Positions 1,746 to 42,049 of a stretch of DNA of 64,000 nt are shown here, in pieces (within the stretch, counting starts at the first letter, position 1; each line of letters starts with the position of its first letter). The stretch lies in contig JAUSIH010000037.1 of NCBI GenBank assembly GCA_030648205.1, forward strand, positions 3,744 through 67,743. The letters are read 5' to 3'. This stretch comes from Dehalococcoidia bacterium. GTDB lineage: Bacteria; Chloroflexota; Dehalococcoidia; JAUSIH01. A program made the translations under genes and the position numbers. Below the pieces are notes generated by a model that did not search any database, was not told the DNA's origin, and saw only the letters and a program-made list of their open reading frames with translations.

Positions 1746-2380
1746 CCAGCGGCGACAGCCCTTCCGCCGCAGCGCGCGCGCACGGCGCGGAAGGGCGGCG
1801 CATCGGCGAGGTGGTCCTGGCCGAAAGCGCGCGGTTCACCGTTCACTGCTACGATTTGCACGGAGCGCCGCCTCTGGGCGCGTTCCTGCGCGCCAGCAAC
1901 GGCCATACGCCGGTGTACGCCGTCGTGGCGGGCGCCTCCACGGTGAGCATTGACGCGGGACGGCGGCCCGTGGCCCTGGGCGCGGAGATGGAGAGCGAGG
2001 AGGAGGTGTACCGGAGCCAACCACAACTGGCGCAGCTCTTCCGGACGGAAGCGCAGGCCCTGGCCGTGGGCTTCCACGATCCTTCCACGGAAGGACCGCG
2101 GCACTACCTCCCGCCGCGTCCGCCGCGCATTCACGCTTTCGTGTACCTCTGTCCGCCGGAGGAGGTGCGGGCGTTCACCCAGTCGCTGGACTTCCTGGCG
2201 CTGCTGGCGAACGCGCCCATTCCCTCAGCGGACGACGTGCTGGCCGCGTGCGTCCGGGAGGCCGCCGCCGCCCACGACGACCGGCAGGCGTTCCTGCTGC
2301 GGGCGGGCCGGGAGACGGCGCGGCTGCTGGGCGCGGACGCGCAGCGGCTCATGGCTGTCCTGAAGCGCATACGGCCGTAG
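1736..2380 (+). CDS. hypothetical protein (overlaps NurA stop by 10 nt, probably co-transcribed)
   Basis: 214-aa ORF whose start is translationally coupled to the end of the NurA-like gene. No recognisable motif. Confidence 0.45.
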   Translation: MAMTSGDSPSAAARAHGAEGRRIGEVVLAESARFTVHCYDLHGAPPLGAFLRASNGHTPVYAVVAGASTVSIDAGRRPVALGAEMESEEEVYRSQPQLAQLFRTEAQALAVGFHDPSTEGPRHYLPPRPPRIHAFVYLCPPEEVRAFTQSLDFLALLANAPIPSADDVLAACVREAAAAHDDRQAFLLRAGRETARLLGADAQRLMAVLKRIRP

Positions 2381-2394
2381 GAGCTATTCCAAAA

Positions 2395-2812
2395 ATCGGC
2401 TTCATGGTTCGACCCTTCGGCTCTGCTCAGGGCAGGCAGGCTCACCATGAACGGGAAAACCACCGCTCACCCTGAGCTTGTCGAAGGGCGAACAGGCATT
2501 TTGAAATGACTTCTAGTGTGGTGTCTCCGAAATTCATTGCCAACGTCATTGCGAGCCCCGATGAAATCGGGGCGTGGCAATCTGGTTGCGGGGTACACCC
2601 CTCCTCCAGATTGCTTCGTCCTCCTTCCGCGGAAGGACTCCTCGCAATGACAATTCCTAAGCGTATTTCAAGGACAGGACGCCAGGTTCTGTTGACAATC
2701 TGCATTTCCCCGCTCATGGTGAGCTTGTCGAATCCATGAGCGGGATAACAATATCCCCCGCTCGCCCTGAGCTTGTCGAAGGGCGAGCGAACAAGGTCAA
2801 CAGAACCTAGCG
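2395..2812. repeat. composite MITE-like repeat cluster (modules 'gctcaccctgagcttgtcgaagggcga', hairpin 'gtcattgcgag...ctcgcaatgac', 'ctagtgtggtgtc')
   Basis: Sub-modules recur at 12826-12970, 26420-26700, 28330-28540, 32840-33060, 35832-36185 and 37303-37727. The ORFs inside (2442..2717, 2506..2739) are repeat-encoded artefacts. Confidence 0.75.
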
Positions 2813-6715: not shown

Positions 6716-7780
6716 GTGAGGTCCGTCATGGCGACCCGCGCCCGCGTCCTGGACGTCCAGGACGACCTTGAGGTCATCAACGAGTACGCCTATGAGCAGG
6801 GCTGGACGGACGGCCTGCCGATTGTTCCGCCCACCCCTGCGCGCGTGAACGCGATGATGCGCGCCGTGGACCGCCGTCCGGATGACGTGGTGGCCCACCT
6901 GCCGCCGCTACGGGCCGCCGCGACGGTGGAGAAGATAGCCATCAGCGCCGTCATGGCGTGGTGCAAGCCGGAGTACTTCCCCGTCGTGCTCGCCGCGGTG
7001 GAGGCCGCCGCGGACCCGCGTCTGTGCATTATGGCCATGAACACGACAACGAACCCCACCGTGCCGTTCGTGCTCGTGAACGGGCCTGTGCGCAACGACA
7101 TAGACCTGAACTGCTCGTGGAGCGTGCTGGGGCCGCGCAAGCGCGCCAACGCGACGATTGGCCGCGCTCTCAGCCTCATCATGATCAATTTGGCGGGTCG
7201 TTTGCCGGAGCAGACGTGCAAGGCGACGTGGAAGATGCCGGGCGCGTTCACCATGTGCGCGGGTGAATACGAGGAGGAAAGCCCCTGGGAGCCTTTCCAT
7301 ACAGACCGGGGCTTCAAGAAGGACGAGAGCACGGTCACGCTCATGTCGCCCGTCTCCGCCGTGAACATCGTGGACAATGAGAGCCAGACGCCGGACGAGC
7401 TGCTCGCCAACATCAACGCGGGCATGTTGGGCGCGGGCAGCAACAACGTCTTTCCTTTCTACGGCATCGGGAACATGGGGCTGATGCTCTGCCCCAACCA
7501 TGCACAGCTTCTGGCCCGGCAGTACACTCGGCGACAGCTCCAGGAGCACTTCCTGACTCACCTCAGGCTGCCTGCGTCGTACCTCAGCCCCCGGCGCGTG
7601 GCGATGATGAAGTCGGCGGACCTGGGGCAGATTGAGGACGGCTATGTGCGGTACGCCGCCCGCGCCGACCAGTTCCTGATCTTCGTGGCGGGCGGACTCG
7701 GCGGGCTGCATTCCGGATTCTTCCCCACGCTGGGCGACTCCAAGGCGGTGACGTACCCCATCCGCCTGCCCGACAGATAG
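6716..7780 (+). CDS. uncharacterised conserved protein, 'GWTDGLPxVPPT' family, paralog 1
   Basis: 354 aa. Shares 'EQGWTDGLPIVPPTPARV...AISAVMAWCKPEYFPVVLAAVEA...VNGPVR...IGRA' with the ORFs at 7800 and 11769. Confidence 0.6.
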   Translation: MRSVMATRARVLDVQDDLEVINEYAYEQGWTDGLPIVPPTPARVNAMMRAVDRRPDDVVAHLPPLRAAATVEKIAISAVMAWCKPEYFPVVLAAVEAAADPRLCIMAMNTTTNPTVPFVLVNGPVRNDIDLNCSWSVLGPRKRANATIGRALSLIMINLAGRLPEQTCKATWKMPGAFTMCAGEYEEESPWEPFHTDRGFKKDESTVTLMSPVSAVNIVDNESQTPDELLANINAGMLGAGSNNVFPFYGIGNMGLMLCPNHAQLLARQYTRRQLQEHFLTHLRLPASYLSPRRVAMMKSADLGQIEDGYVRYAARADQFLIFVAGGLGGLHSGFFPTLGDSKAVTYPIRLPDR

Positions 7781-7799: not shown

Positions 7800-8867
7800 T
7801 TGCGCATGGACCTTCAGTCACAGCGCGTGGAGACGGCGGGCGCCGACGATGCGATAGAGCTGTTCTTCGATAAGGGGTGGACGGACGGCCTGCCGGTCGT
7901 GCCGCCCACGGCGGAGCGGGTGGAGCGCATGATCGCCGCCGGTGGCCGTGGGGCGGATGAGCTTGTCGGCCTCATTCCGCCCAAGGGAAGCGCCGGTACG
8001 GTCGAAAAGCTGGCCGTGAACGCCGTGATGGCGGGCTGCAAGCCGGAGTACTTCCCCGTCGTCCTTGCCGCAGTGGATGCGATGCTCGCCCCCGAGTTCA
8101 ACTGGAACGGCGTCGCCACCACGGCGCACATCGCGTCGCCGCTCGTCATCGTGCACGGCCCTGTGCGCAAGCGCATTGGCGTGAACTGTGGCTGGGGGGT
8201 CTTCGGCAACGGGTGGCGCGCGAACGGGACCATAGGGCGCGCGGTCGCCCTCATCATGTGGAACCTGGGGGGCGCCATCCCCGGCGAGACCTGTCGCAAG
8301 ACCATGGGTCACCCGGGCAAGTGGAGCTACTGCATCGGCGAGAACGAGGAGGTCAGCCCGTGGCCGCCGTTCCACGCGGAGCGGGGATTCAAGCCGGAGC
8401 AGAGCGCGGTGACGGTCTTCGGGTGCGAGGCGCCGCACGGCGTGCGCTCGGTGGGCGACGCGAAGGCCGTGATGTACAGCATTGCCAGCGCGTACTCGAC
8501 CATTGCGAACAACAACATAGCGTACATGGGCCAGGCGCTGGTGGTCGTCGGCTCCCTCTGTGCCGAGGTGTTCAGGAACGAGAATTGGTCCAGGCAAGCG
8601 GTGCAGGAGTTCATCTGGCAGCACGCGCGCCTGCCCGTGGGCGTGGTGGACGGAAGCGGCACGTACTCCGAGGGGCTGGAGCACCACTTCTGGCCGCAGT
8701 GGGTGGACAGGAAGAATCCCCGCGATCTCGCGCCCATCACGAAAAGGCCGGAGGACATCCACGTGCTGGTGGCCGGCGGCTATGGCCGCTCGTGCGCCAT
8801 CTGCCCTGGCTGGGGTGAATTCGGCGGTTTCGCGGTCACGCGGGAGGTCCGGCTGGCTTCCCGCTAA
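7800..8867 (+). CDS. uncharacterised conserved protein, 'GWTDGLPxVPPT' family, paralog 2
   Basis: 355 aa. 'DKGWTDGLPVVPPTAERV...NAVMAGCKPEYFPVVLAAVDA', collinear with paralogs 1 and 3. Confidence 0.6.
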   Translation: MRMDLQSQRVETAGADDAIELFFDKGWTDGLPVVPPTAERVERMIAAGGRGADELVGLIPPKGSAGTVEKLAVNAVMAGCKPEYFPVVLAAVDAMLAPEFNWNGVATTAHIASPLVIVHGPVRKRIGVNCGWGVFGNGWRANGTIGRAVALIMWNLGGAIPGETCRKTMGHPGKWSYCIGENEEVSPWPPFHAERGFKPEQSAVTVFGCEAPHGVRSVGDAKAVMYSIASAYSTIANNNIAYMGQALVVVGSLCAEVFRNENWSRQAVQEFIWQHARLPVGVVDGSGTYSEGLEHHFWPQWVDRKNPRDLAPITKRPEDIHVLVAGGYGRSCAICPGWGEFGGFAVTREVRLASR

Positions 8868-11768: not shown

Positions 11769-12824
11769 ATGTCTTCACTACAATTGCGCTCGCCGATCGT
11801 GGAGGCCGAGGACGACCTGGATGGCGTCTTCGCCGAGTATTATCGAAAAGGCTGGACGGACGGCCTGCCCATCGTCCCGCCCACGGAGGCGCGCGTGCGC
11901 CGGATGATAGAGGCGTCTGGACGCTCGCCGGACGAGGTGGTCGGGGTGTTCCCGCCGCGCCAGGCGCAGGGAACGGTGGAGCAGATAGCGGTCAACGCCG
12001 TCATGGCCGGGTGCCTGCCGGAGTACCTCCCCGTGGTGCTCGCCATCGCCGACGCGATGACCGACCCGGGCTTTGATCTCTTTTCGCTCAACACGACCAC
12101 CAATGCGGTCGCCATCCTGACCGTGGTCAACGGCCCCGTCCGCCAGCAGCTTGACATCAACTGCAGCTACGGCCTCCTTGGGCCGGGCTGGCGCGCCAAC
12201 GCGACCATCGGGCGGGCGGTGCGGCTGGTGCAGACGAACATCGCGGGTGCGCTGCCGGGGCCGGTCAGCAAGTCCACGCATGGACAGCCCGGACGCTACG
12301 CCATGTGCTTCGGCGAGTTCGAGGAGAAGAACCCCTGGGAGCCGCTGCACGTGGAGCAGGGGTTCAAGCGCGAGGAGAGCGCCGTCTCCCTGTTCACCGC
12401 GCAGGGCACGGTCCCCATCACCGAGTCGCGCACCCGGACGGCGAAGGCGCTCATCCACTTCATCGCGCACTGCATGGACATCGTGGGCACGAACAACATG
12501 CTGTCGGGGCATCCCGGCGATTCGCTGCTCATCCTGTGCCCCGACCATGCGGCGATCATCGCGCGGGACGGCTACTCGAAGAAGGCGCTCCAGGAGGCGC
12601 TCTTCGCGAAGACCAACCGGATATCGCTGAGCCGCTGGCCGGAGGACAAACACGAGGAACTTCTGAAGAACCGGAAAGCCACAGGGCGGTTCGTGTCCCT
12701 GCACGACGGCCCCGCCAACTTCCGCATCGTTGTCGCCGGGGGGCTTGGCGGCATCCATTCGACCTGGGTCCCCACCTACGGCCATTCGGTCGCCATCACC
12801 AGGCGAATCAAGGCTGGAAGCTAG
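11769..12824 (+). CDS. uncharacterised conserved protein, 'GWTDGLPxVPPT' family, paralog 3
   Basis: 351 aa. 'RKGWTDGLPIVPPTEARV...NAVMAGCLPEYLPVVLAIADA'. Confidence 0.6.
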   Translation: MSSLQLRSPIVEAEDDLDGVFAEYYRKGWTDGLPIVPPTEARVRRMIEASGRSPDEVVGVFPPRQAQGTVEQIAVNAVMAGCLPEYLPVVLAIADAMTDPGFDLFSLNTTTNAVAILTVVNGPVRQQLDINCSYGLLGPGWRANATIGRAVRLVQTNIAGALPGPVSKSTHGQPGRYAMCFGEFEEKNPWEPLHVEQGFKREESAVSLFTAQGTVPITESRTRTAKALIHFIAHCMDIVGTNNMLSGHPGDSLLILCPDHAAIIARDGYSKKALQEALFAKTNRISLSRWPEDKHEELLKNRKATGRFVSLHDGPANFRIVVAGGLGGIHSTWVPTYGHSVAITRRIKAGS

Positions 12825-12825
12825 T

Positions 12826-12970
12826 GTAGTGTCCCTGAAATACGTTCCCTATTTCACGTCATACCGGCGAAAGCCGGTATCCAGAGAAGCGCAGGGGAAT
12901 GCTGGATTCCGGATCAAGTCCGGAATGACGGACACTGTAAAGCTGTTGCTGAGACACTACACTAGCAGCG
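12826..12970. repeat. MITE-like element with terminal inverted repeats 'ctagtgtagtg...cactacactag'
   Basis: Starts 2 nt after the stop of the gene at 11769..12824. Its internal module 'ccggcgaaagccggtatccagagaagcgcaggggaatgctggattccggatcaagtccggaatgacgg' recurs inverted at 32880-32990 and partly at 35960-36010. Confidence 0.75.
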
Positions 12971-23954: not shown

Positions 23955-26415
<2,461 letters not shown>

Positions 26416-26419
26416 GTCT

Positions 26420-26700
26420 GTTGCAAACCCTCACCCCCTGCCCCCGCTCCCTTTACGAAAGGGAGCGGGGGTATTGAATCTGGGGGTATCCCCCAGGCCC
26501 CCGCCAGAGGGACTGCGGCCCCTCTGGACACCCCAAAATGGGCCTTCGCGAGCGCCCCATGTGTTCTGTAGGCTCTGCTTCTATTGAGATGCAGGTCAAA
26601 GCTCTGCCGGGGTCTGGGGTGTCCCCAGAAGTCTTATCTCCCCCTTTCCCGCAGGAGAGGGGGAGAGGTGAGTATCTGAAGAAACAAGGCTTGTGCCGCA
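26420..26700. repeat. MITE-like repeat (module 'ctgggggt.tcccccag.cccccgccagaggg...cccctctgg')
   Basis: Near-identical module at 28470-28530 and 37440-37495. Second partial copy at 26620-26690. Confidence 0.7.
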
Positions 26701-26850
26701 GGGTAGGCGCCCGGCCTTTTGGACGGTCTAGGCTGCCAGCAGACGGAAGACGGACGTTCCAGCGGATGGGGAAGCGCAACGCTTCCCCATCTGTGTTTCC
26801 GGCGGGTGGCCCGCTATAGCTCTGCTATAATGTGGCCGGAGATAAGACTG

Positions 26851-28281
26851 ATGCCGCGCCAGCGTTCACGGATGTCCTTTTTCTGCAAGGAGTGCGGAGC
26901 GGAAAGCCCCAAGTGGGCGGGTTCCTGTCCCGCGTGCGGCCACTGGAACACAATGGTGGAAGCGCCCGCCGCCGGGCCCGCGACCTCTGGCGCCCGCTCC
27001 TGGCTCTCGTCCGCGGAGGCGGCGCCGCAGGAGCTGGCTACGCTGGCCCCCGCGGCCCGCGCGCGCCTGCCCGTGCATATCGGCGAGGTGGACCGCGTCC
27101 TGGGCGGTGGCATCGTGCCCGGCTCGCTGGTCCTGGTAGGCGGCGACCCCGGCATCGGCAAGTCCACCCTGCTGCTGCAGGTGGCGGCGTCCGCGGTGGA
27201 GGCCCTGGGACCGGTGCTCTACGTCTCCGGCGAGGAGTCGGCCCAGCAGATACGCCTGCGCGCCGAGCGTCTGGGCATCTCCGGCAAGGGCCTGTTCCTG
27301 TGCGCCGAGACGTCGCTGGAGGCTGTCCTGCGCCACATGGACGCCATGAAGCCCGCTCTGGGCATTGTGGACTCCATTCAGACGGTGTGGGCGGAGGACG
27401 TGGCGGGCGCGGCGGGAAGCGTGGCGCAGGTGCGGGAGTGCGCCCTGCGGCTCATGCAGTGGGCCAAGGCGCGCGGCACGCCCGTCTTCATCACCGGCCA
27501 CGTGACCAAGGAGGGGGCCATCGCCGGGCCGCGCGTGCTGGAGCACATGGTGGACGCGGTGCTGTACCTGGAGGGGGAGTCCTTCGGCGCCTACCGCATT
27601 CTGCGCGGGGTCAAGAACCGCTTCGGCTCCACGAACGAGGTGGGCGTCTTCGAGATGACGGACAGGGGCATGCGCGAGGTGGCGAACCCGTCGCTGGCGT
27701 TCCTTTCGCCGCACGCTGCGCCCGCTCCGGGCGTGGCCATCGTGCCGACGCTGGAGGGCACGCGGCCCCTGCTGGCGGAGGTGCAGGCGCTGACATCGCC
27801 GTCGCAGTTCGGCACGCCGCGGCGCACGGCCAACGGCGTGGACCTGAACCGGCTGCACCTTATGACGGCGGTGCTGGGCCGGCGGCTGCGCGTCCCGCTG
27901 GGGAACCAGGATGTCATCGTTAACGTGGTGGGCGGCCTGCGCATTGACGAGCCCGCCGCCGACCTGGGCATTGCGCTGGCCATCGTGTCCAGCTTCCGCA
28001 ACGTGCCCGTGCGCGACAAGATGGTGGTCGTGGGCGAGGTCGGGCTGAGCGGCGAGCTGCGCCCCGTGAGCCAGACGGACCGGCGTCTGGCGGAGGCGGC
28101 CAGCCTGGGGTTCCGCGCGTGCCTGCTGCCGAGCGCCGCCATGCCCGCGGCGCCGCCGGAGGGGCTGGAGTTGTTGCCCGCCGCTACGCTGCGGGAGGCG
28201 GTGCGATTGGCTATGCCGCTCGCGGCGAAGCCGGACGAACGGGATGCGGAAGATGACCTGGTGTTTGAGGACAAGTCATGA
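26851..28281 (+). CDS. radA: DNA repair protein RadA/Sms
   Basis: Zinc finger 'CKECGAESPKWAGSCPACGHWNT', RecA-like Walker A 'GGDPGIGKST', 'KNRFG' motif and a Lon-like C-terminal domain. The start is the ATG at 26851 or 26872. Confidence 0.9.
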   Translation: MPRQRSRMSFFCKECGAESPKWAGSCPACGHWNTMVEAPAAGPATSGARSWLSSAEAAPQELATLAPAARARLPVHIGEVDRVLGGGIVPGSLVLVGGDPGIGKSTLLLQVAASAVEALGPVLYVSGEESAQQIRLRAERLGISGKGLFLCAETSLEAVLRHMDAMKPALGIVDSIQTVWAEDVAGAAGSVAQVRECALRLMQWAKARGTPVFITGHVTKEGAIAGPRVLEHMVDAVLYLEGESFGAYRILRGVKNRFGSTNEVGVFEMTDRGMREVANPSLAFLSPHAAPAPGVAIVPTLEGTRPLLAEVQALTSPSQFGTPRRTANGVDLNRLHLMTAVLGRRLRVPLGNQDVIVNVVGGLRIDEPAADLGIALAIVSSFRNVPVRDKMVVVGEVGLSGELRPVSQTDRRLAEAASLGFRACLLPSAAMPAAPPEGLELLPAATLREAVRLAMPLAAKPDERDAEDDLVFEDKS

Positions 28282-28329
28282 CCGCTACGTCTCCGCATAC
28301 TGCGTCTTCTTTCCCCTTCGACGGGCCCG

Positions 28330-28540
28330 TCCTTCGACAAGCTCAGGACGAGCGGAAGATTGCCCCGCTCATGGTGAGCCTGTCGAACCATGAGCTTGCG
28401 CCTGCACCGTTGGGCCAGAATCCCTCACCCCCTGTGTCCCCCTCTCCCCAGGAGAGGGGGAGAGAAATGAATCTGGGGGTGTCCCCCAGACCCCCGCCAG
28501 AGGGGGACAACCCCTCTGGACTCCCCGCACATGGGCTGTC
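28330..28540. repeat. MITE-like repeat overlapping the 5' end of the larE-like gene
   Basis: Modules 'cgctcatggtgagcctgtcgaaccatgag' and 'ctgggggtgtcccccagacccccgccagagggggacaacccctctgg'. Confidence 0.7.
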
Positions 28541-29366
28541 GGAGAGGGCTCTCGACCAGAAGCTGGAGGCCCTGCACGCCCTGCTCCGCGAGATGGGTTC
28601 GGTCGTCGTCGCGTATTCGGGCGGCGTGGACAGCACCTTTGTCGCCGCTGTTGCCTGCGACGCGCTCGGCGACCGGGCGCTCGCCGTGACCGCCGTGTCG
28701 CCGCAGATTACGGACGTGGAGCTGGCGGAGGCGAAGGAGCTTGCCGTGCGCATCGGCGTCCGGCACATCGCCCTCGATACGCTGCAGATGGAGGACGCGA
28801 ACTTCGTCCGGAACGACGCGCGCCGCTGCTACTTCTGCAAGACGGAGCTGTACACGAAGCTGTCGCCCATCGCCCGCGCGCGGGGCTTCGCGTGGGTCGT
28901 GAACGGCACGAATACCGACGACCTGGGCGACTACCGCCCCGGCCTGGATGCGGCGGCGGAGCACCGCGTGCGCAGCCCGCTGGTGGAGGCGGGCGTCTCC
29001 AAGGCGGAGGTGCGGGAGCTGTCGCGGCGTCGCGGCCTACCTACGTGGGACAAGCCCGCCTCGCCGTGCCTGGCATCGCGGCTGCCGTACTGGACGCGCG
29101 TCACCGTCGAGGCGCTGACGATGGTGGGCCGCGCCGAGGCCTATCTGCATAGCCTGGGTATCCGCGAGGCGCGCGTGCGCCACCACGGCGACCTCGCCCG
29201 CATTGAGGCGGACGCGGCGGGCATGGCGCTGCTGGCGCGGGAGGACGTGCGCGCGCAGGTGAAGGAGCGGCTGCGGTCGTTCGGCTACGCGCGCGTGGAA
29301 GTGGACCCGAGAGGGTTTCGCAGTGGCAGCCTGAACGAGGCGTTGGGACGGAGGAGCGGCCCGTGA
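28467..29366 (+). CDS. larE: PP-loop ATPase, LarE-like (ATP-dependent sacrificial sulfur transferase family)
   Basis: 'LREMGSVVVAYSGGVDSTFVAAVA' is the PP-loop SGGxDS. 'CYFCK' and the C-terminal region match LarE/TIGR00268. The start is uncertain. The only in-frame ATG with an SD (28467) lies inside the repeat. Confidence 0.65.
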   Translation: MNLGVSPRPPPEGDNPSGLPAHGLSERALDQKLEALHALLREMGSVVVAYSGGVDSTFVAAVACDALGDRALAVTAVSPQITDVELAEAKELAVRIGVRHIALDTLQMEDANFVRNDARRCYFCKTELYTKLSPIARARGFAWVVNGTNTDDLGDYRPGLDAAAEHRVRSPLVEAGVSKAEVRELSRRRGLPTWDKPASPCLASRLPYWTRVTVEALTMVGRAEAYLHSLGIREARVRHHGDLARIEADAAGMALLAREDVRAQVKERLRSFGYARVEVDPRGFRSGSLNEALGRRSGP

Positions 29367-29785: not shown

Positions 29786-29882
29786 GGGGAGGCGCTGCGC
29801 TCGTTCGGCTACACTTGCGTCGAGGTTTGACTCACGGGGGTACAGGGGCGGGAGTTGAATGAGGGAGTGAGATTACAGAGCA

Positions 29883-30965
29883 ATGAAGTATCGAAACGAG
29901 CTTGAAGAACACCGTGCACTCGAATATCAACGCTGGAACAAGAAGCGGAAATTTAGGCAGACTGTTACTGTAATGTTGATCCTTGGGGCAGTAGCAGCCG
30001 TTATCGGCACTGTTGCTCTACTGGTACCCACTATCAAGCCTGACCAACAACTAACACGAGTCACTCAGTTCCTGCAAAGTCTTTCCCCGTCCACTGATAT
30101 TTCATCCGCATCAAAGGCGCTTGCTTTCCCAACTTCAGATAGCTATGCGGCGCAACCACCTGTTGCTTTAGCTACCGTTACACCGGATGCGATCAAATTG
30201 AGGTCCGAACTTCCACGGGACGTTTATGAGCAGTTTTATAACGACTTCTACGCGGGATGTGTAGATCCTCCGCGAGACAAGCTTGGAGTCGCGAAAACCT
30301 GGTCAGGCACTGGGAATTCTACGGTCATCATTCCACCACAGTTCGGCACTTATTTTCTTGTGCTCATTGCCAATCCATCCTCCTCGGGCTGGCGTTTTGA
30401 TAGCGTCCTTGACACAGGCTCCAGTGGCAAGAAACAGTCCCTAAGAGTCAGCAGCACAGCACCTACGGTGCTGACCGATTCGCAGGAATGGTGTACGATG
30501 GGCGCCGGTGTCCCACGTCCATACGCACTTGAAATCCAGTCCCAAAACTTAGCTTGGACAGTTCATTTAGTGACCTCTGGCGGCCAGAGCGTGCTCTCCA
30601 AGGCTGTCAACGATTCGTTATCTGGCTATTATGGTGTATGTCCAGCGGTACCTCCTGTGGGTAGTTTAGGTGTCCTGAGAACATGGAGTAGTACTCAAGG
30701 CAATATGCAGCAATCTATAGAGTTTGCAGGTGGGCCTCCCTTTTACTTCTTAGGGGTAAGATTCGAGCCGTTGCAAAAGGAATGGAGCTTTGAAAGTACC
30801 GAGATCAATGGCAACCGCCGGGTGGCTGGTCCGAAAGTCTCCTATCAAACCGGTGAGAGGGTTAACTTTACAGCCACATGTCCGGATGGCCCTGGGTTAG
30901 GGCATCTGGACATCCAGTCGCAAGGAGGAGATTGGACTATTTACCTGATAGGTGTCCGTAGGTAA
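29883..30965 (+). CDS. hypothetical membrane-anchored protein with internal duplication, encoded in an AT-rich island
   Basis: N-terminal TM ('VTVMLILGAVAAVIGTVALLV'). Two ~100-aa repeats both end in '...IQSQ..W T(V/I)(H/Y)L(V/I)'. Local GC is ~48% versus ~67% in the flanks. Confidence 0.5.
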   Translation: MKYRNELEEHRALEYQRWNKKRKFRQTVTVMLILGAVAAVIGTVALLVPTIKPDQQLTRVTQFLQSLSPSTDISSASKALAFPTSDSYAAQPPVALATVTPDAIKLRSELPRDVYEQFYNDFYAGCVDPPRDKLGVAKTWSGTGNSTVIIPPQFGTYFLVLIANPSSSGWRFDSVLDTGSSGKKQSLRVSSTAPTVLTDSQEWCTMGAGVPRPYALEIQSQNLAWTVHLVTSGGQSVLSKAVNDSLSGYYGVCPAVPPVGSLGVLRTWSSTQGNMQQSIEFAGGPPFYFLGVRFEPLQKEWSFESTEINGNRRVAGPKVSYQTGERVNFTATCPDGPGLGHLDIQSQGGDWTIYLIGVRR

Positions 30966-31050
30966 AAAGACAGCTTAGAGTCAACCACATTGAGGGCGAC
31001 AGCTCGATTGCTTTAGAAGTTGGCAGCAGTTGTAAAGGAGGATAGCAGTC

Positions 31051-31338
31051 ATGCCGAAAGGAAAGTCCAAACGCGGCAATGCGCACACGTCCGAAAACCT
31101 TGTCCTTCACTTTATGGCAATTCCGACCATTGTCCTAATTAGTATCTATGTCGCCGGCACTCTCGTCGAAAGCCTTTTCGGTCTGCCTGGAGCAATCAAG
31201 TATATCTTTTTGGGTATTGGCGGCACAGGCTTTGTAGTAGTTTATTTCAATCGAGAAATCAAGGCCCATTTTCAAATAGACATGGCCAGCGGAGCCAACA
31301 AACTTTACCAGACACTCAAAAATAGCAAGAAAAGCTAA
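31051..31338 (+). CDS. small two-TM membrane protein (in AT-rich island)
   Basis: 95-aa ORF with two hydrophobic helices and low-GC codon usage like its neighbour. Confidence 0.35.
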   Translation: MPKGKSKRGNAHTSENLVLHFMAIPTIVLISIYVAGTLVESLFGLPGAIKYIFLGIGGTGFVVVYFNREIKAHFQIDMASGANKLYQTLKNSKKS

Positions 31339-31617
31339 GCCATTTTGCGACAACGGATTAGAGCAATACAACAATTACTTGGCACACAACTGACACGATC
31401 GTCACCGTCTAGGTGAAGAAGCCGCTGGACAAGGTGATTCCCGTGCGCCTGTCCGCGGACGTGTGGGAGGCCCTGCGCAAGGAGGCGCGTGAGCTTGGCG
31501 TCGGGCCGACGACGGCTGTGCTCGGAATGACAGGAAACGTCGGTCCGCTCATGGATTCGACAGGCTCACCACGAGCGGGCTATTATTTGGCCTGACGCTT
31601 AATTGAGAGGCCGTCCC

Positions 31618-32817
31618 ATGACCATTGCGTACTTTGACCTGATAGGCGGCGCGAGCGGCGATATGACGCTCGGCGCGCTGGCGGACGCCGGGCTGGACAT
31701 GGCGGCGCTGGAGTCGGCGCTTCGCACTCTGCCCGTGCGCGGCTACCGCCTGGAGGCGGAGCGCGTGCGGCGCGGCGCTCTCTCCGCCACGCGCGTCCGC
31801 GTCCGCATCACACGCCGCTCCAAGCAGCCGCGCACCCTCGCCGACCTGCTCGCCATCGTCCGCGCGGGCAAGCTGCCGACGCGCGTCCGCGAGCAGGCGG
31901 CGGCCATCTTCCGTCGCCTGGCGGAGGTCGAGGCCAAAGTCCACGACGTGCCCGTCGAGCAGGTCCACTTCCACGAGCTGGGCGCGGTGGACACCGTCGT
32001 GGACGTGGTCGGCGCGTGCCTGGGCCTGCACCTGCTGGGCGTGGACCAGGTGTACGCCTCGCCGCTGCCGCTCGGCCACGGCCTCATCCGCTCTGACGAC
32101 GGCCCGCTGCCTCTGCCCGCGCCTGCCACGCTGGAGCTGGCCGCGCGCGCGAAGGCCCCCCTTCGGCCCGACGACGGCACGATGGGCGAGACGGTCACGC
32201 CCACGGGCGCGGCCATCCTGACCACCCTCGCTGAGTTCCGGCGGCCCGCCATGCGGCTGGAGCGCGTCGGCTACGGCGCGGGCGGGCGCGACACGCCTGA
32301 GCGTCCCAACGTGCTCGCCGTGTGGCTCGGCCAGCCTGTCGAGAGCGCAGGGGAGACGCCGCTGGCGCTGCTGGAGACGAACATTGACGACATGGACCCG
32401 CGCATCTACGGCCACCTGATGGAGCGGCTGCTGGAGGCGGGCGCGCGCGACGCGTGGTACACGCCCATCCAGATGAAGAAGGGGCGGCCCGCGACGATGG
32501 TGAGCGTGCTCGCGACGCCCGACCTCGAAGGCGCGCTCGTCGGTCTGCTGCTGCGCGAGACGACGACGCTGGGCGTGCGCGTGCGCGACGTGCGCCGCCA
32601 CGAGGCGCAGCGCGAGAGCGTCACGCTCAAGACGAGCCTCGGCGAGGTGCCGGTCAAGGTGAAGCGCATCGAGGGCAAGGCGGTGGGCGCGACGCCGGAG
32701 TATGATGTGTGCCGGCGCATCGCGCGGGAGAAGGGGATGCCGCTCGTGGATGTGCTGCGGCGCGTGCAGCGGGAGGCGGAGGCGAAGCTGCTCAAGGGCG
32801 GCGACAAAAGGGCATAG
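31618..32817 (+). CDS. larC: nickel insertion protein LarC (pyridinium-3,5-bisthiocarboxylic acid mononucleotide nickel chelatase) family
   Basis: 'MTIAYFDLIGGASGDMTLGALADAG' matches the LarC/DUF111 N-terminus. About 400 aa. Confidence 0.8.
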   Translation: MTIAYFDLIGGASGDMTLGALADAGLDMAALESALRTLPVRGYRLEAERVRRGALSATRVRVRITRRSKQPRTLADLLAIVRAGKLPTRVREQAAAIFRRLAEVEAKVHDVPVEQVHFHELGAVDTVVDVVGACLGLHLLGVDQVYASPLPLGHGLIRSDDGPLPLPAPATLELAARAKAPLRPDDGTMGETVTPTGAAILTTLAEFRRPAMRLERVGYGAGGRDTPERPNVLAVWLGQPVESAGETPLALLETNIDDMDPRIYGHLMERLLEAGARDAWYTPIQMKKGRPATMVSVLATPDLEGALVGLLLRETTTLGVRVRDVRRHEAQRESVTLKTSLGEVPVKVKRIEGKAVGATPEYDVCRRIAREKGMPLVDVLRRVQREAEAKLLKGGDKRA

Positions 32818-32839
32818 GTGTGTCCTGTCTCTGAAGTAC

Positions 32840-33060
32840 GCATACTAATTCATGCATGAGAAGTTGTTCGAGGAAACGCCCTTGGGCACTTGCCGTCTTT
32901 CCGGCGAAAGCCGGAATCCAGCGTTCCCTTGTGCTTCTCTGGATACCGGCTTCCGCCGGTATGACATGGAATAGGGAACGTATTTCGGGGACAGGACAGT
33001 AGATTCATTTCCCTATCTCCCTCTCCCTGTCAGGGAGAGGGAGACGCAGAGGGTGAGGGT
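32840..33060. repeat. MITE-like repeat (inverted copy of the 12826-12970 module plus hairpin 'tccctctccctgtcagggagagggag')
   Basis: 'ggcgaaagccggaatccagcgttcccttgtgcttctctggataccggcttccgccggtatgac' is the reverse complement of 12860-12930. Confidence 0.7.
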
Positions 33061-33108
33061 GGTATCCTGAACACGCTGCCCGGCGCAACGGGCTGAACGG
33101 AGAAAGAG

Positions 33109-35333: not shown

Positions 35334-35831
35334 ATGGACGACCTGACACACGTCATCATCTACACGGACGGCGCCTGCCTGGGCAACCCGGGCCCGGGCG
35401 GCTACGGCGCGCTGCTCATCAACGGGGACAGGCGGCAGCACATATCGGGTGGGTACCGCCTCACCACGAACAATCGCATGGAGATCATGGCCGCCATCGT
35501 CGCGCTGGACGCGCTGCGCTCCCGCTGCCGCGTGACGCTCTACAGCGACTCGCAGTACGTCGTCAACGCCATGTCCAAAGGCTGGGCGCGGAAGTGGCGC
35601 TTAAACGGCTGGATGCGGAACAAGGACGAAAGGGCCATCAATCCTGACCTGTGGGAGCGCCTGCTCCAGCAGTGCGAGCGGCATGACGTCGAGTTCAAGT
35701 GGGTCAGGGGCCACGCGGGCATTGACGGCAACGAGCGCGCCGACCGGCTTTCCATGCAAGGGGCGCAAAAGCCCGGCCTGCCGCCGGACATCGAGTACGA
35801 AAAGACCGCCGGAGGCCCTGCGCGCAGATAG
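35334..35831 (+). CDS. rnhA: ribonuclease HI
   Basis: 'VIIYTDGACLGNPGPGGYGALL...NNRMEI...YSDSQYVVNA...WVRGHAGIDGNERADRL' are the RNase H catalytic motifs (DEDD). Confidence 0.85.
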   Translation: MDDLTHVIIYTDGACLGNPGPGGYGALLINGDRRQHISGGYRLTTNNRMEIMAAIVALDALRSRCRVTLYSDSQYVVNAMSKGWARKWRLNGWMRNKDERAINPDLWERLLQQCERHDVEFKWVRGHAGIDGNERADRLSMQGAQKPGLPPDIEYEKTAGGPARR

Positions 35832-36185
35832 CCCCTTTGAAAAAGCGGCGTCATTGCGAGTCCCGATGCAATCGGGACGTGGCAATCTGGAAGTGGGGGT
35901 GCGTCCCGTCCCCGCCGCATTGCCGTGAGAATGGCCTCTTCGTCATTCCCGCGTTCGCGGGAATCAAGGAAAGCCACGGGCATGGATTCCGGATCAAGTC
36001 CGGAATGACGGGTTGGTGGCCATGTTTTCATCTCCCGTGGCACCCCAATAGGGCATGGCTGATTGCCGCGCTGCGCTCGCAATCAGCGAACCGGGGGCGC
36101 CGCGTCTCCGCCAGATTGCTTCGCTCCGCTCGCAATGACGGACGGGGGGCGCTGCGTCCGCGGATGAGTGCACGGCTGTGTAGTA
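35832..36185. repeat. MITE-like repeat cluster (two 'gtcattgcgag/ctcgcaatgac' hairpin modules plus the 'ggattccggatcaagtccggaatgacgg' module)
   Basis: It begins right after the rnhA stop. Modules are shared with 2556-2668, 12900-12935 and 37588-37700. Confidence 0.7.
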
Positions 36186-36195
36186 CAATACGTTC

Positions 36196-37305
36196 ATGCC
36201 TTCATCATCTCTCCCTTCTACATTCTTTGACCTAACGCTGGACGAGCTGACCGAGCGGCTGCGCGGCATGGGCGAAAAGACCTTCCGCGCAAAGCAGCTC
36301 TACCACTGGGTCTATCGTCGCTTCGCCGCGTCCTACGACGAGATGACCGATCTGCCCGCGCCGCTGCGCCAGCGCTTCGTGGAGGAACTGCCGCTGCGCA
36401 GCCTCAAGCGCGTCGTGGTGCAGGAGTCGAAGGACGGCACGACGCGCAAGGCGCTCTTCCGCCTCCGCGACGGCCACACCATCGAGACGGTGCTGATGCT
36501 CTACCTGCCCAAGAAGGGCGGCGCGTGGCGGCGCACGGTCTGCGTCTCCACGCAGGTGGGCTGCGCGCTTGCGTGCTCCTTCTGCGCCACCGGCCAGATG
36601 GGCCTTGCGCGCGACCTCTCCGCCGGCGAAATCGTGGAGCAGGTCATCGCGTTCGCGCGGGAGCTGCGCCAGGAGGGTCTGGCGAAGGAGGAGCAGCCCG
36701 TCACGAATGTCGTCTTCATGGGCATGGGCGAGCCGTTCGCCAACCTGGACGGGACGTGGAAGTCCGTCCACATCCTCAACGACAAGGACGGCTACGCCCT
36801 GGGCGCGCGGCACATCACCATCTCGACGGTCGGCATCGTGCCCGGCATCCAGCGTCTCATCAAGGAGAAGGTGCAGGTCAACCTCGCCGTCTCCCTGCAC
36901 GCGCCGAACGACGAGATCCGCTCGCGCATCATGCCCATCAACAAGCGCTACCCCGTTGACGAACTGCTGAAAGCCTGCCGCGAGTACGTGGACGCCACCC
37001 ACCGTCGCGTCTTCTTCGAGTACCTCATGATCCGCGACCTGAACGACGGCATAGAGCACGCCCATGAGCTGGGGCGCAAGCTGTACGGCATGACCTGCCA
37101 CGTGAACATGCTGCCCATGAACCCCGTCCCCGGCTCTGACATGCGCGGCTCGCCTCCGGCTCGCGTCAATGCCTTCGGGGAAGAGCTCCGCAAGTGGGGC
37201 ATCCGCTCAACCGTCCGCTTTGAGAAGGGCGTGGACATCCAGGCGGGCTGCGGCCAGCTCAAGACCGCGGTGGAGAGAGGCCGCGAGAAGGCGGGCGCGC
37301 GCTAG
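36196..37305 (+). CDS. rlmN: 23S rRNA (adenine2503-C2)-methyltransferase, radical SAM
   Basis: 'FRAKQLYHWVYRR' and radical-SAM 'CVSTQVGCALACSFCATGQMG'. 369 aa. Confidence 0.9.
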   Translation: MPSSSLPSTFFDLTLDELTERLRGMGEKTFRAKQLYHWVYRRFAASYDEMTDLPAPLRQRFVEELPLRSLKRVVVQESKDGTTRKALFRLRDGHTIETVLMLYLPKKGGAWRRTVCVSTQVGCALACSFCATGQMGLARDLSAGEIVEQVIAFARELRQEGLAKEEQPVTNVVFMGMGEPFANLDGTWKSVHILNDKDGYALGARHITISTVGIVPGIQRLIKEKVQVNLAVSLHAPNDEIRSRIMPINKRYPVDELLKACREYVDATHRRVFFEYLMIRDLNDGIEHAHELGRKLYGMTCHVNMLPMNPVPGSDMRGSPPARVNAFGEELRKWGIRSTVRFEKGVDIQAGCGQLKTAVERGREKAGAR

Positions 37306-37727
37306 TGTAGTGCTTTCGCAATCTCGTTACCTGCGAGACTCTGCAACGTTGATCGCCTTTGCATGGTTCCTGGTCTTTGACCCAGGGAACCATCCCCTTC
37401 AGTTCCCCTTTCCTTCTCCGAGGAAGGGGAATGAGGGATACTGGGGGTGACCCCCAGTGCCCCCGTCAAAGGGGGCTCTGCCCCCTCTGGCTCCCTCGTG
37501 CCGGAGATTCCAGACGCACCCCTTCCGTAACGAAGCGTTGGAAGCACTACACTAGTGTCCTGTCCCTGAAATACGCGTACGAAATTGTCATTGCGAGGAG
37601 TCCTTCCGCGGAAGGACAACGAAGCTATCGGGAAGAGGGATGGACCCGGCCGCCAGATTGCCACGGCCCTCCTTCGTCTGGCCTCGCAATGACATTGTGA
37701 CAAACTTCGGGGACACCACACTAGGAA
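37303..37727. repeat. MITE-like composite element bounded by 'ctagtgtagtg' (37304) and 'caccacactag' (37717)
   Basis: It contains the 'ctggggg...ccctctgg' module, a second internal TIR pair ('cactacactagtgtcc' at 37545) and the 'gtcattgcgag...cgcaatgac' hairpin. Confidence 0.75.
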
Positions 37728-41844: not shown

Positions 41845-42049
41845 GAGGCGCGGCGGCCCACCACAGGGCCGCGTACCTGGCGCGCACAAGAACATACAGC
41901 GAGCCGTAGACCGCGAGTGGCCGTAAGGGCCTGAAGGGCGCCAGCCCGCTCGCCGAGGCGCATGAGAGCAGCCCCCCTGCAAGGGGTGTGTTGCACGTCC
42001 CTGCGCTCCCGTCTGCGGCCGCGGGGATTTTTGTTGGAACGGAGGTGTT
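41845..42049 (+). promoter_or_regulatory. rplJ 5' leader (candidate L10 autoregulatory leader / attenuator)
   Basis: A 205-nt structured GC-rich untranslated region ending in 'gcggccgcggggatttttgttgg' just before the rplJ SD. Position is analogous to known L10 leaders. Structure not verified. Confidence 0.35.

What the first reader, a model, noticed from the sequence alone, without database searches (positions are those of the whole stretch)
37303..37727. Family of modular MITE-like elements with 11-bp terminal inverted repeats inserted at gene boundaries (7 loci in 64 kb)
Copies at 2395-2812, 12826-12970, 26420-26700, 28330-28540, 32840-33060, 35832-36185 and 37303-37727 are built from shuffled sub-modules. 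One is a GC hairpin 'ctgggggtNtcccccag.cccccgccagaggg...cccctctgg'. Another is the hairpin 'gtcattgcgag...ctcgcaatgac'. A third is 'ggattccggatcaagtccggaatgacgg'. The fourth is 'gctcaccctgagcttgtcgaagggcga'. Complete units are bounded by 'ctagtgtagtg' / 'cactacactag'. They sit precisely between stop and start codons (for example 2 nt after the 12824 stop and right after the rnhA and rlmN stops), so they are non-disruptive and possibly terminator- or regulator-like. They generate many spurious ORFs.
Basis: seen in the sequence. Interest (0 to 1): 0.55.

Follow-up and report, generated by a model that had tools for sequence, protein, structure and literature searches.

The report
IS630-type MITEs stacked at stop codons
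The repeats are real: they are small, non-coding passenger copies (MITEs) of IS630/Tc1-mariner-type jumping genes that land in the TA of (C)TAG, which is usually a stop codon, so they pile up between genes; this is a known kind of element in a little-studied Chloroflexota lineage.

Summary
All four quoted motifs and the terminal repeat exist at or near the stated coordinates and are far above chance.

Five units (2513-2685, 12821-12965, 32815-33002, 37302-37555, 37552-37724) share a 21-24-nt terminal inverted repeat, CTAGTGTNNTGTCYCYGAAAT.

In other genomes from at least ten phyla, the same ends bound 49-470-nt MITEs. They also bound 1.13-1.2-kb insertion sequences that encode an IS630-family transposase (NCBIfam NF033545, 274 bits). 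No transposase lies in the window.

The other loci are CTAG/TA-bounded inserts with variant ends. They are built from near-perfect GC-rich palindromes.

Relatives at 88-97% identity have empty sites at four loci. They also carry the same MITE types at sites that are empty here, so the elements moved recently.

Six clusters begin inside the TAG stop codon of the upstream gene. Each insertion recreates CTAG at both ends, which explains both the exact gene-boundary placement and the tandem stacking.

There is no support for a terminator or regulator role.

Verdict: a new member of a known kind, of moderate interest.

The parts
2378..2516 (.). Unit X1. A TA/CTAG-bounded ~139-nt insert that starts in the TAG stop of ORF 1736-2380. 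It has weak ends (GGAGCTATTCCAAAA / GAAGTCATTTCAAAA) and holds D-type hairpins (one nested, one at 2460-2491).
   Evidence: Sequence read; D copies; folds better than shuffles, z=-4.2. The ends were judged by eye only, so unit status is tentative.
2513..2685 (-). MITE M1 (173 nt) with canonical IS630-type ends. The left end is exact; the right end is degenerate (CTAG changed to CCAG). The interior is an inverted pair of GTCATTGC...GCAATCTGG hairpins. It is the inverted homologue of M5.
   Evidence: (83% over 169 nt to 37557-37724); z=-6.1.
2682..2810 (.). MITE X2 (~125 nt) with ends (C)CAGGTTCTGTTGAC...GTCAACAGAACCTAG. It carries two D hairpins (2709-2743, 2755-2788) and shares its left tetranucleotide with M1.
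   Evidence: Homologous CTAG-bounded units occur after the enoyl-CoA hydratase (ECH) stop in relative L127 (4748-4866) and in the Chloroflexi metagenome-assembled genome (MAG) L016. z=-7.8.
12821..12965 (+). MITE M2 (145 nt), bounded by CTAGTGTAGTG...CACTACACTAG. The first CTAG contains the TAG stop of ORF 11769-12824. The interior is an inverted pair of GTCATNCCGG-loop-CCGGNATCC hairpins.
   Evidence: The site is empty in relatives L127-L130. z=-7.4.
26412..26731 (.). A 316-nt insert bounded by CTAG...CTAG. The first CTAG contains the clpC-like stop. It contains two F-E palindrome cores in opposite orientation (26428-26527 and 26613-26675).
   Evidence: Relative L126 has 13 nt here and a single CTAG. 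z=-6.9.
28282..28520 (.). radA-larE spacer cluster. It holds two D hairpins (28325-28393, within 28308-28414) followed by an F-E core (28415-28520). No terminal repeat was recognised.
   Evidence: The D pair is absent from the 97% relative L125 and from L126. Those two instead carry 136 or 168 extra nt inside hairpin E2.
31545..31579 (-). A solitary D hairpin (CCCGCTCGTGG TGAGCCTGTCGAAT CCATGAGCGG) at the edge of a low-GC insert.
   Evidence: (I4).
32815..33002 (-). MITE M3 (~186 nt). It is the inverted homologue of M2 and has slightly degenerate ends. It starts in the TAG stop of larC.
   Evidence: (89% over 96 nt); z=-6.9.
33000..33068 (-). An isolated F-type palindrome unit (CTCCCTCTCCC..GGGAGAGGGAG + GGTGAGGG) that abuts M3 and is flanked by TA...TA.
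   Evidence: 33033-33059 matches 28448-28422. Limits were set by eye.
35829..36183 (.). A 349-nt insert between the rnhA stop and the rlmN start, flanked by TAG...TAG. It has an outer GTCATTGCGAG...CTCGCAATGAC hairpin like M1/M5, with degenerate ends and nested GTCATTCC-type hairpins (35944-35970, 35984-36011).
   Evidence: Relatives L121/L122 (91%) have only 12 nt and one TAG here. z=-3.1.
37302..37555 (+). MITE M4 (254 nt), bounded by CTAGTGTAGTG...CACTACACTAG (only 11 nt match well). The first CTAG contains the rlmN stop. The interior holds an F-E core (37407-37490).
   Evidence: The rlmN-tRNA spacer is empty in L123. z=-9.2.
37552..37724 (+). MITE M5 (173 nt) with canonical ends, stacked on M4 and sharing its CTAG. 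The interior is the GTCATTGCGAG...CTCGCAATGAC double hairpin.
   Evidence: A homologue exists in the Chloroflexi MAG L042 at 2058-2251. An M5-type end lies upstream of ECH in L131. z=-6.7.

Best explanation
The window comes from a Chloroflexota chromosome whose intergenic spacers have been colonised by several subfamilies of non-autonomous IS630/Tc1-mariner-type transposons (MITEs).

Proposed mechanism:
- A transposase supplied in trans binds the 21-24-nt terminal inverted repeats and cuts the element out. This step is inferred: no transposase lies in the window.
- The element is pasted into a TA dinucleotide, preferably the TA of CTAG, and the TA is duplicated.
- CTAG is five-fold depleted in this genome, and TAG is the dominant stop codon. 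Usable and harmless targets are therefore mostly stop codons.
- The elements begin with G and end with C, so an insertion into C-TA-G restores the TAG stop. It also recreates CTAG at both ends, and later insertions stack there in tandem.
- This accounts for the exact placement after stop codons and for the mosaic clusters.

The interiors are made of near-perfect GC-rich palindromes: GTCATT-box hairpins, the D hairpin with the loop GAGCYTGTCGAA, and the three-hairpin F-E core. These are shared among MITE subfamilies and can sit nested inside one another. Their role is not shown. The most likely reading is that they are passenger or structural DNA of the elements rather than host regulatory signals.
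For: Shown:
1. The ends are far above chance.
2. The same 21-nt end occurs in at least 120 stretches of genomes from at least ten phyla.
3. There it bounds 35 short units of 49-470 nt, nearly all flanked CTAG...CTAG, and 7 units of 1129-1200 nt.
4. The long units encode an IS630-family transposase: L045 scores 274 bits on NF033545 against a cut-off of 100, with DDE_3 plus HTH domains. Transposase genes lie next to the ends in 15 of 120 loci.
5. Empty sites in close relatives: the rnhA-rlmN spacer (12 nt versus 355 nt, one TAG versus TAG...TAG); the clpC-radA spacer (13 nt versus 337 nt, one CTAG versus CTAG...CTAG); the M2 site; and the rlmN-tRNA spacer in L123, where the stop is TGA.
6. The reverse case also holds. 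L127 has an X2-type plus an M2/M3-type MITE stacked on the CTAG stop of ECH, where the window has a bare CTAG. L131 has an M5-type end upstream of ECH.
7. Stacked units share one CTAG both in the window (M4/M5; M1/X2) and in L112 and L127.
8. Outer flank bases differ between the two ends in several copies (TTAG...CTAG, CTAG...CTAA) while TA is kept. This fits a 2-bp TA duplication.
9. Six clusters start in a TAG stop. TAG accounts for 29 of 51 stops, and CTAG is observed 40 times against about 209 expected.

From the literature: IS630-family elements insert into TA and duplicate it (PMC2170065). IS630 prefers TA within CTAG (Tenzen and Ohtsubo 1991, cited there). RUP is an accepted MITE linked to IS630-Spn1 by end similarity and a TA target (PMC2229807).
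Against: - No transposase is present in the 64-kb window.
- None of the sampled full-length elements comes from a Chloroflexota genome, so a cognate enzyme in this lineage is inferred, not shown.
- Three loci (26412-26731, 28282-28520, 35829-36183) lack clear inverted ends.
- The two D hairpins at 28308-28414 are an insertion relative to a 97% relative, yet have no TA or CTAG at the junctions. D-like units also sit nested inside other hairpins at TTCG/TTCC microhomologies. This hints at a second mechanism that does not depend on terminal repeats.
- The empty M2 site in L127 reads TTGA rather than CTAG, so the TA duplication of a canonical unit is not directly demonstrated.
Confidence: 0.8

Rival explanations
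1. REP/BIME-like elements: short palindromic units spread by a RAYT-type (Y1/HUH) transposase acting on single-stranded hairpins. They assemble into mosaics in intergenic regions.
For: - The loci are mosaics of 25-45-nt near-perfect palindromes in inverted pairs.
- D-type units occur without terminal repeats. They are inserted relative to a 97% relative without TA junctions and are nested inside other hairpins.
- Stems stay perfectly paired while their sequence varies: 757 Watson-Crick pairs against 17 non-Watson-Crick pairs in F stems.
Against: - Complete units have long terminal inverted repeats identical to those of IS630-family insertion sequences.
- Inserts are CTAG/TA-bounded, with duplication seen against empty sites.
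- No conserved GTAG head was seen in the units read.
- No RAYT was looked for beyond the window.
Confidence: 0.08
2. Host cis-acting RNA elements (terminators, mRNA-stabilising 3' hairpins or attenuators) kept by selection at gene ends.
For: - The elements are placed directly after stop codons.
- They fold very stably (z -3 to -9).
- Stem sequences vary in a compensatory way across about 80 copies.
- A few G-T wobbles recur in D stems on one strand.
Against: - The hairpins have no T tails, and terminator or promoter matches are not above shuffles.
- There is no Rfam match even at E<=1.
- The elements are present or absent between relatives at 88-97% identity, and different elements occupy the same site.
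- Both orientations occur, and folding energy is equal on both strands.
- G-T pairs are almost absent from stems.
Confidence: 0.05
3. MITEs of the IS5 / PIF-Harbinger type, which duplicate a 3-4-bp YTAR target (CTAG) rather than TA.
For: - Most copies are flanked by a full CTAG on both sides.
- The rnhA-site insert is flanked by TAG...TAG, which could be a 3-bp duplication.
Against: - The full-length elements with these very ends encode IS630-family, not IS5-family, transposases.
- In several copies the outer bases differ between the two flanks while TA is kept.
Confidence: 0.05

Closest known systems
RUP (repeat unit of pneumococcus) and IS630-Spn1
   Same: A roughly 100-nt non-coding intergenic repeat whose terminal inverted repeats match those of an IS630-family insertion sequence. 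It inserts at TA and is thought to be mobilised in trans (PMC2229807).
   Different: - Here several subfamilies with related or different ends coexist.
- The interiors are GC-rich perfect palindromes.
- The ends are shared across many phyla.
- No cognate insertion sequence has yet been seen in the same lineage.
IS630 (Shigella) / IS870 (Agrobacterium) group of the IS630/Tc1-mariner family
   Same: - The target is the TA of 5'-CTAG-3', with TA duplication (PMC2170065 and Tenzen 1990/1991 cited there).
- In L009 the transposase ORF ends exactly in the terminal CTAG. From memory, IS870 has the same feature (Fournier et al. 1993).
- The transposase has a DDE_3 domain plus N-terminal HTH domains.
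   Different: The window holds only deletion derivatives without any gene. Sequence identity to named insertion sequences was not established; plasmid hits are annotated only as 'IS630 family transposase'.
Correia/NEMIS elements of Neisseria
   Same: Abundant TA-targeting MITEs with long inverted ends that fold into hairpins and sit next to genes (PMC2229807).
   Different: Correia elements carry IHF sites, promoters and RNase III sites with shown effects on expression. No such signals were found here.
REP / BIME mosaics of enterobacteria
   Same: Intergenic mosaics built from a small set of palindromic modules in varying order and orientation.
   Different: REPs lack long terminal inverted repeats and a TA duplication, and they depend on RAYT transposases. 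Here complete units have IS630-type ends.

Membership tests
Bacterial MITE | Short (under about 500 nt) and non-coding | tested here: met
   Units are 124-254 nt and clusters are at most 355 nt. ORFs across them have no Pfam hit.
Bacterial MITE | Terminal inverted repeats | tested here: met
   Met for M1-M5 and X2. Weak or absent for X1, 26412-26731, 28282-28520 and 35829-36183.
Bacterial MITE | Target-site duplication seen against an empty site | tested here: met
   One CTAG versus CTAG...CTAG at the clpC site. One TAG versus TAG...TAG at the rnhA site. For canonical M2 the relative's site reads TTGA, so the duplication itself is not visible there.
Bacterial MITE | Multiple copies and insertion polymorphism | tested here: met
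   At least 10 units in 64 kb. Four empty sites in relatives, plus occupied sites in relatives that are empty in the window.
IS630/Tc1-mariner derivative | Ends shared with elements encoding an IS630-family transposase | tested here: met
   Seven elements of 1.13-1.2 kb with the same ends. NF033545 scores 274 bits against a cut-off of 100, with DDE_3 plus HTH.
IS630/Tc1-mariner derivative | TA target (CTAG preferred), 2-bp duplication | tested here: inconclusive
   CTAG or TA lies at nearly all ends. Unequal outer bases with TA kept favour a 2-bp duplication. Too few filled/empty pairs are available to exclude a 3-4-bp duplication.
IS630/Tc1-mariner derivative | Cognate transposase in the same genome | not testable with these tools
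   None in the window (tblastn). The rest of the genome is not available. No Chloroflexota locus in the sample had one.
REP/BIME | 20-40-nt imperfect palindromes with a conserved GTAG head, linked to a RAYT gene | tested here: not met
   The palindromes are present but have no GTAG head. Heads are GTCATT, CCGCTC or CCCCC. A RAYT gene was not searched for genome-wide.
Described structured RNA / intrinsic terminator | Match to an Rfam model, or a GC hairpin followed by a T run | tested here: not met
   Only tRNAs at gathering score. Nothing on the elements at E<=1. Terminator-like sites are not above shuffles.

The most novel reading that the evidence does not exclude
The GC-rich palindrome modules may be mobile units in their own right. 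These are the three-hairpin F-E core, the D unit with the conserved loop GAGCYTGTCGAA, and the GTCATT-box hairpins.

The F-E core occurs in at least 80 environmental contigs, flanked by at least three unrelated classes of terminal repeats. Its stems are nearly perfect yet differ in sequence from copy to copy. D-like units sit nested inside its hairpins, or appear in a 97%-identical relative's empty site without TA junctions.

This would imply a second layer of insertion or copying that is directed by hairpins and independent of terminal repeats. Candidate mechanisms are a Y1/HUH enzyme or template switching. It would operate across many bacterial phyla and would shuffle modules between MITE backbones.
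Probability: 0.2. Interest if true: 0.65.

Novelty: new member of a known kind. Interest (0 to 1): 0.35.

Why it matters
- It explains a recurring nuisance in metagenome-assembled genomes from groundwater and sediment. These repeats create many spurious 'hypothetical proteins', lengthen or alter gene ends (RlmN is extended by 18 residues in one relative), and break assemblies.
- It is a clean example of how target choice (TA in CTAG), together with rarity of that tetranucleotide and heavy use of TAG stops, steers transposons to harmless sites at gene ends and makes them stack.
- The insertion polymorphisms could serve as strain markers.
- The near-identical 21-nt end across at least ten phyla points to wide horizontal spread of one IS630 subgroup.

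Tried and rejected
- **Exact-protein look-ups.** RlmN and EF-Tu of the window found no record. The source genome is not in that collection, so relatives were reached through homologues instead.
- **RNAalifold on a MAFFT alignment of 60 F-E cores.** It recovered only the invariant hairpin, because the variable stems were misaligned. I replaced it with an alignment-free stem tally. A first tally based on MFE folds was confounded by the C-rich strand.
- **Orientation of F-E cores relative to neighbouring ORFs.** The result was 37 sense versus 49 antisense. It is noisy because ORF calls on short GC-rich contigs are crude, and I treat it only as 'no strong bias'.
- **The end CTAGCAGGGTGCTGAAAAA.** It bounds many F-E MITEs in metagenomes but is absent from the window.
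- **A phage vector.** This looks unlikely: only 3 and 7 hits in 2.9 million viral contigs.
- **Literature searches.** Searches for the sequence strings and for IS630 MITEs in Chloroflexi found nothing relevant.
- **Parsing 26412-26731 and 35829-36183 into clean sub-units with inverted ends.** This did not succeed. They are reported as composite inserts.
- **A script scanning for long pairs of the CAGGGTGCTGAAAA end.** It timed out and was not repeated.
Full report
**1. Observation.**
The region 37303-37727 and the six other loci were read directly.
- CTAGTGTAGTG (up to 1 mismatch) occurs 6 times against 0.23 expected.
- GTCATTGCGAG occurs 7 times against 1.4 expected.
- A local BLAST of each spacer against the window links all seven loci through shared segments of 25-169 nt at 83-100% identity.

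The repeats are therefore real and not chance.

**2. Anatomy.**
The 11-nt repeat is the outer part of a longer end, CTAGTGT(AG/CC/GG)TGTCCCTGAAATACG. With the pattern CTAGTGTNNTGTCYCYGAAAT the window has 7 matches at up to 3 mismatches against 0.02 expected. At up to 4 mismatches it has 9 ends against 0.1 in shuffles.

These ends pair into five units:
- M1, 2513-2685
- M2, 12821-12965
- M3, 32815-33002
- M4, 37302-37555
- M5, 37552-37724

M1 is the inverted homologue of M5, and M3 is the inverted homologue of M2. M4 and M5 abut and share a single CTAG.

The interiors are inverted pairs of hairpins.
- M1 and M5 contain two GTCATTGC...GCAATCTGG units. These form the large 'GTCATTGCGAG...CTCGCAATGAC' hairpin.
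- M2 and M3 contain two GTCATNCCGG-loop-CCGGNATCC units.
- M4 contains a block of three GC-rich palindromes, here called F, E1 and E2.

The remaining loci lack this end.
- 2682-2810 (X2) has its own inverted ends, GGTTCTGTTGAC/GTCAACAGAACC, followed by CTAG. It carries two 'D' hairpins with a conserved loop GAGCTTGTCGAA and covarying stems.
- 2378-2516, 26412-26731 and 35829-36183 are bounded by TA(G) or CTAG but have poor inverted ends.
- 28282-28520 has no recognisable ends.

All units fold much better than shuffles, equally on both strands (z -3 to -9).

**3. Context.**
The flanking genes are ordinary housekeeping genes: a ClpC/ClpB-like ATPase, RadA, a LarE-like protein, LarC, RNase H, RlmN, three tRNAs and EF-Tu. 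The best protein matches are to Chloroflexota metagenome-assembled genomes.

Six clusters begin inside the TAG stop codon of the upstream gene: 2378, 12822, 26413, 32815, 35829 and 37303.

Rough gene calls give TAG 29, TAA 15 and TGA 7 among 51 stops. A relative's database gene calls give 13, 4 and 1. CTAG itself is rare, at 40 observed against about 209 expected.

**4. What the ends belong to.**
The hits come from:
- Acidobacteriota
- Verrucomicrobiota
- Chloroflexota
- Alpha- and Gammaproteobacteria
- Latescibacterota
- Planctomycetota
- Armatimonadota
- Thermodesulfobacteriota
- Bacillota
- other phyla

In these loci, inverted pairs of the end delimit 35 short units of 49-470 nt, almost all flanked CTAG...CTAG. 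They also delimit seven units of 1129-1200 nt.

The long units encode IS630-family transposases.
- L045:1762-2904(-) is 380 aa. It scores 274 bits on NCBIfam NF033545 against a cut-off of 100, and carries Pfam DDE_3 plus HTH domains.
- Transposase genes lie next to the end in 15 of the 120 loci.
- In L009 the transposase ORF ends exactly in the terminal CTAG.
- Two copies in L112 are stacked and share a CTAG, as M4 and M5 do.

L042, from a Chloroflexi genome, carries a clear homologue of M5 that includes the GTCATTGCGAG hairpin. The window itself has no transposase.

**5. Evidence of movement.**
Contigs of relatives were obtained through homologues of RlmN, RadA and the enoyl-CoA hydratase.
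- (a) L121 and L122 (91% identity) have 12 nt and one TAG between rnhA and rlmN. The window has a 355-nt cluster there, flanked by TAG...TAG.
- (b) L126 (about 89%) has 13 nt and one CTAG between clpC and radA. The window has 337 nt there (26416-26752), most of it a 316-nt insert flanked by CTAG...CTAG.
- (c) L127-L130 (about 88%) lack M2.
- (d) L123 (about 78%) has a TGA stop on rlmN followed directly by the tRNA promoter. M4 and M5 are absent.
- (e) The reverse also occurs. L127 has an X2-type MITE and an M2/M3-type MITE stacked on the CTAG stop of the hydratase gene, where the window has a bare CTAG. L131 has an M5-type end upstream of that gene.
- (f) L121 carries a different 353-nt repeat block at the rlmN 3' site. 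There CTAG is mutated to CCAG, which extends RlmN by 18 residues.

The elements have therefore been active since these lineages diverged.

**6. Mechanism.**
IS630-family elements are cut out and pasted into TA, which is duplicated (PMC2170065). IS630 prefers the TA of CTAG (Tenzen and Ohtsubo 1991, cited there). RUP of *S. pneumoniae* is the accepted precedent for an IS630-linked MITE (PMC2229807).

Because these elements start with G and end with C, insertion into C-TA-G restores the stop codon. It also leaves a CTAG at each end, which invites stacking.

Unequal outer bases in some copies (TTAG...CTAG, CTAG...CTAA) with TA kept favour a 2-bp duplication.

Status of the steps:
- Shown: shared ends with IS630 elements, insertion polymorphism, and TA/CTAG junctions.
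- Inferred: trans-mobilisation by a transposase in this lineage.

**7. The modules.**
About 80 of these contigs contain the same F-E1-E2 core as the window.

Of 85 cores, 16 have the inverted repeat CTAGCAGGGTGCTGAAAAA...TTTTTCAGCACCCTGCTAG at both ends, giving units of about 149 nt. Another 9 show it at one end only. Other cores are bounded by different ends, of the TCTATCTCAAAAC type and the GGCCGTTTAATA type. The core is therefore part of CTAG/TA-bounded MITEs with several classes of ends.

Stems are almost perfectly paired although about 70 different stem sequences occur:
- F stems: 757 Watson-Crick, 7 A-C, 6 G-T, 4 other.
- E2 stems: 596 Watson-Crick, 20 A-C, 7 G-T, 8 other.

There is no clear strand signature and no orientation bias relative to neighbouring ORFs.

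D-like units are found nested inside F or E2 hairpins in several contigs. The D pair at 28308-28414 is absent from a 97% relative, and no TA lies at its junctions. This layer is not explained by IS630 transposition.

**8. Function.**
Nothing supports a terminator or regulator role.
- Terminator- and promoter-like sites are not above shuffles, and the hairpins lack T tails.
- Rfam gives nothing on the elements even at E<=1.
- Presence varies between close relatives.

**9. Comparison and novelty.**
The closest known element is RUP with IS630-Spn1. The closest known target behaviour is that of IS630 and IS870. The mosaic look resembles BIMEs, but REP-defining features are not met.

No paper in the searchable library contains these sequences or describes IS630 MITEs in Chloroflexi.

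I file this as a new member of a known kind. The open and more novel question is whether the palindrome modules move on their own.

**10. Verdict.**

Noticed in passing
whole window; L123: TAG is the dominant stop codon in this 65% GC lineage. The window has TAG 29, TAA 15 and TGA 7 among 51 rough gene calls, including tuf, rplK, rplA and rplJ. Relative L123 has 13, 4 and 1 among 18 database gene calls. TGA stops occur mostly in ATGA/GTGA start-stop overlaps. This is unusual for a GC-rich bacterium and provides many harmless TA targets at gene ends.
   Followed up: partly
window 29786-31602: A low-GC (about 0.51) insert of about 1.8 kb lies between the chagasin-like inhibitor gene and larC. 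It is absent from relative L126. It holds ORF 29883-30965 (360 aa, no Pfam hit), a small membrane-like ORF at 31051-31338, and a D hairpin at its right edge.
   Followed up: partly
L121 2460-2533: In the 91% relative the CTAG that ends rlmN is CCAG. RlmN therefore runs 18 codons into a repeat block. This is an example of these elements altering a protein's C-terminus.
   Followed up: partly
window 28278-28592; L125 1437-1701; L126 5324-5578: The longest larE-like ORF starts at the ATGA overlap with radA and reads through the repeat cluster. The conserved domain begins only at about residue 97. The true start is probably near 28593, and database gene calls in relatives disagree (370 aa in L126, a later start in L125).
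   Followed up: partly
L138, L156, L168, L216, L229, L248 (F hairpin); L146, L159, L222, L223, L125, L126 (E2 hairpin): A unit of about 27 nt, GAGCCTGTCCTGAGCGNAGTCGAAGG, is related to the window's D loop. It sits nested inside other palindromes, often next to TTCG/TTCC microhomology and with no terminal inverted repeat.
   Followed up: partly
window 6716-7780, 7800-8867, 11769-12824: Three paralogous genes of about 350 aa with no Pfam hit share about 70-75% nucleotide identity in blocks (repeat families D3, D4, D7, D17). The third one ends in MITE M2.
   Followed up: no
window 41886-42041: A sub-threshold match to the ribosomal protein L10 leader (RF00557, 31.6 bits against a gathering score of 44) lies upstream of rplJ, in the expected place.
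   Followed up: no
L126 8333-8443: After the larC TAG stop, the 90% relative carries different hairpin modules (GGTAGATTCCTCGCTACGCTCAGAATGAC twice, and GTGTCACCCTGAACGAAGTGAAGGGTC) instead of M3. The same site is filled by different elements in different strains.
   Followed up: no
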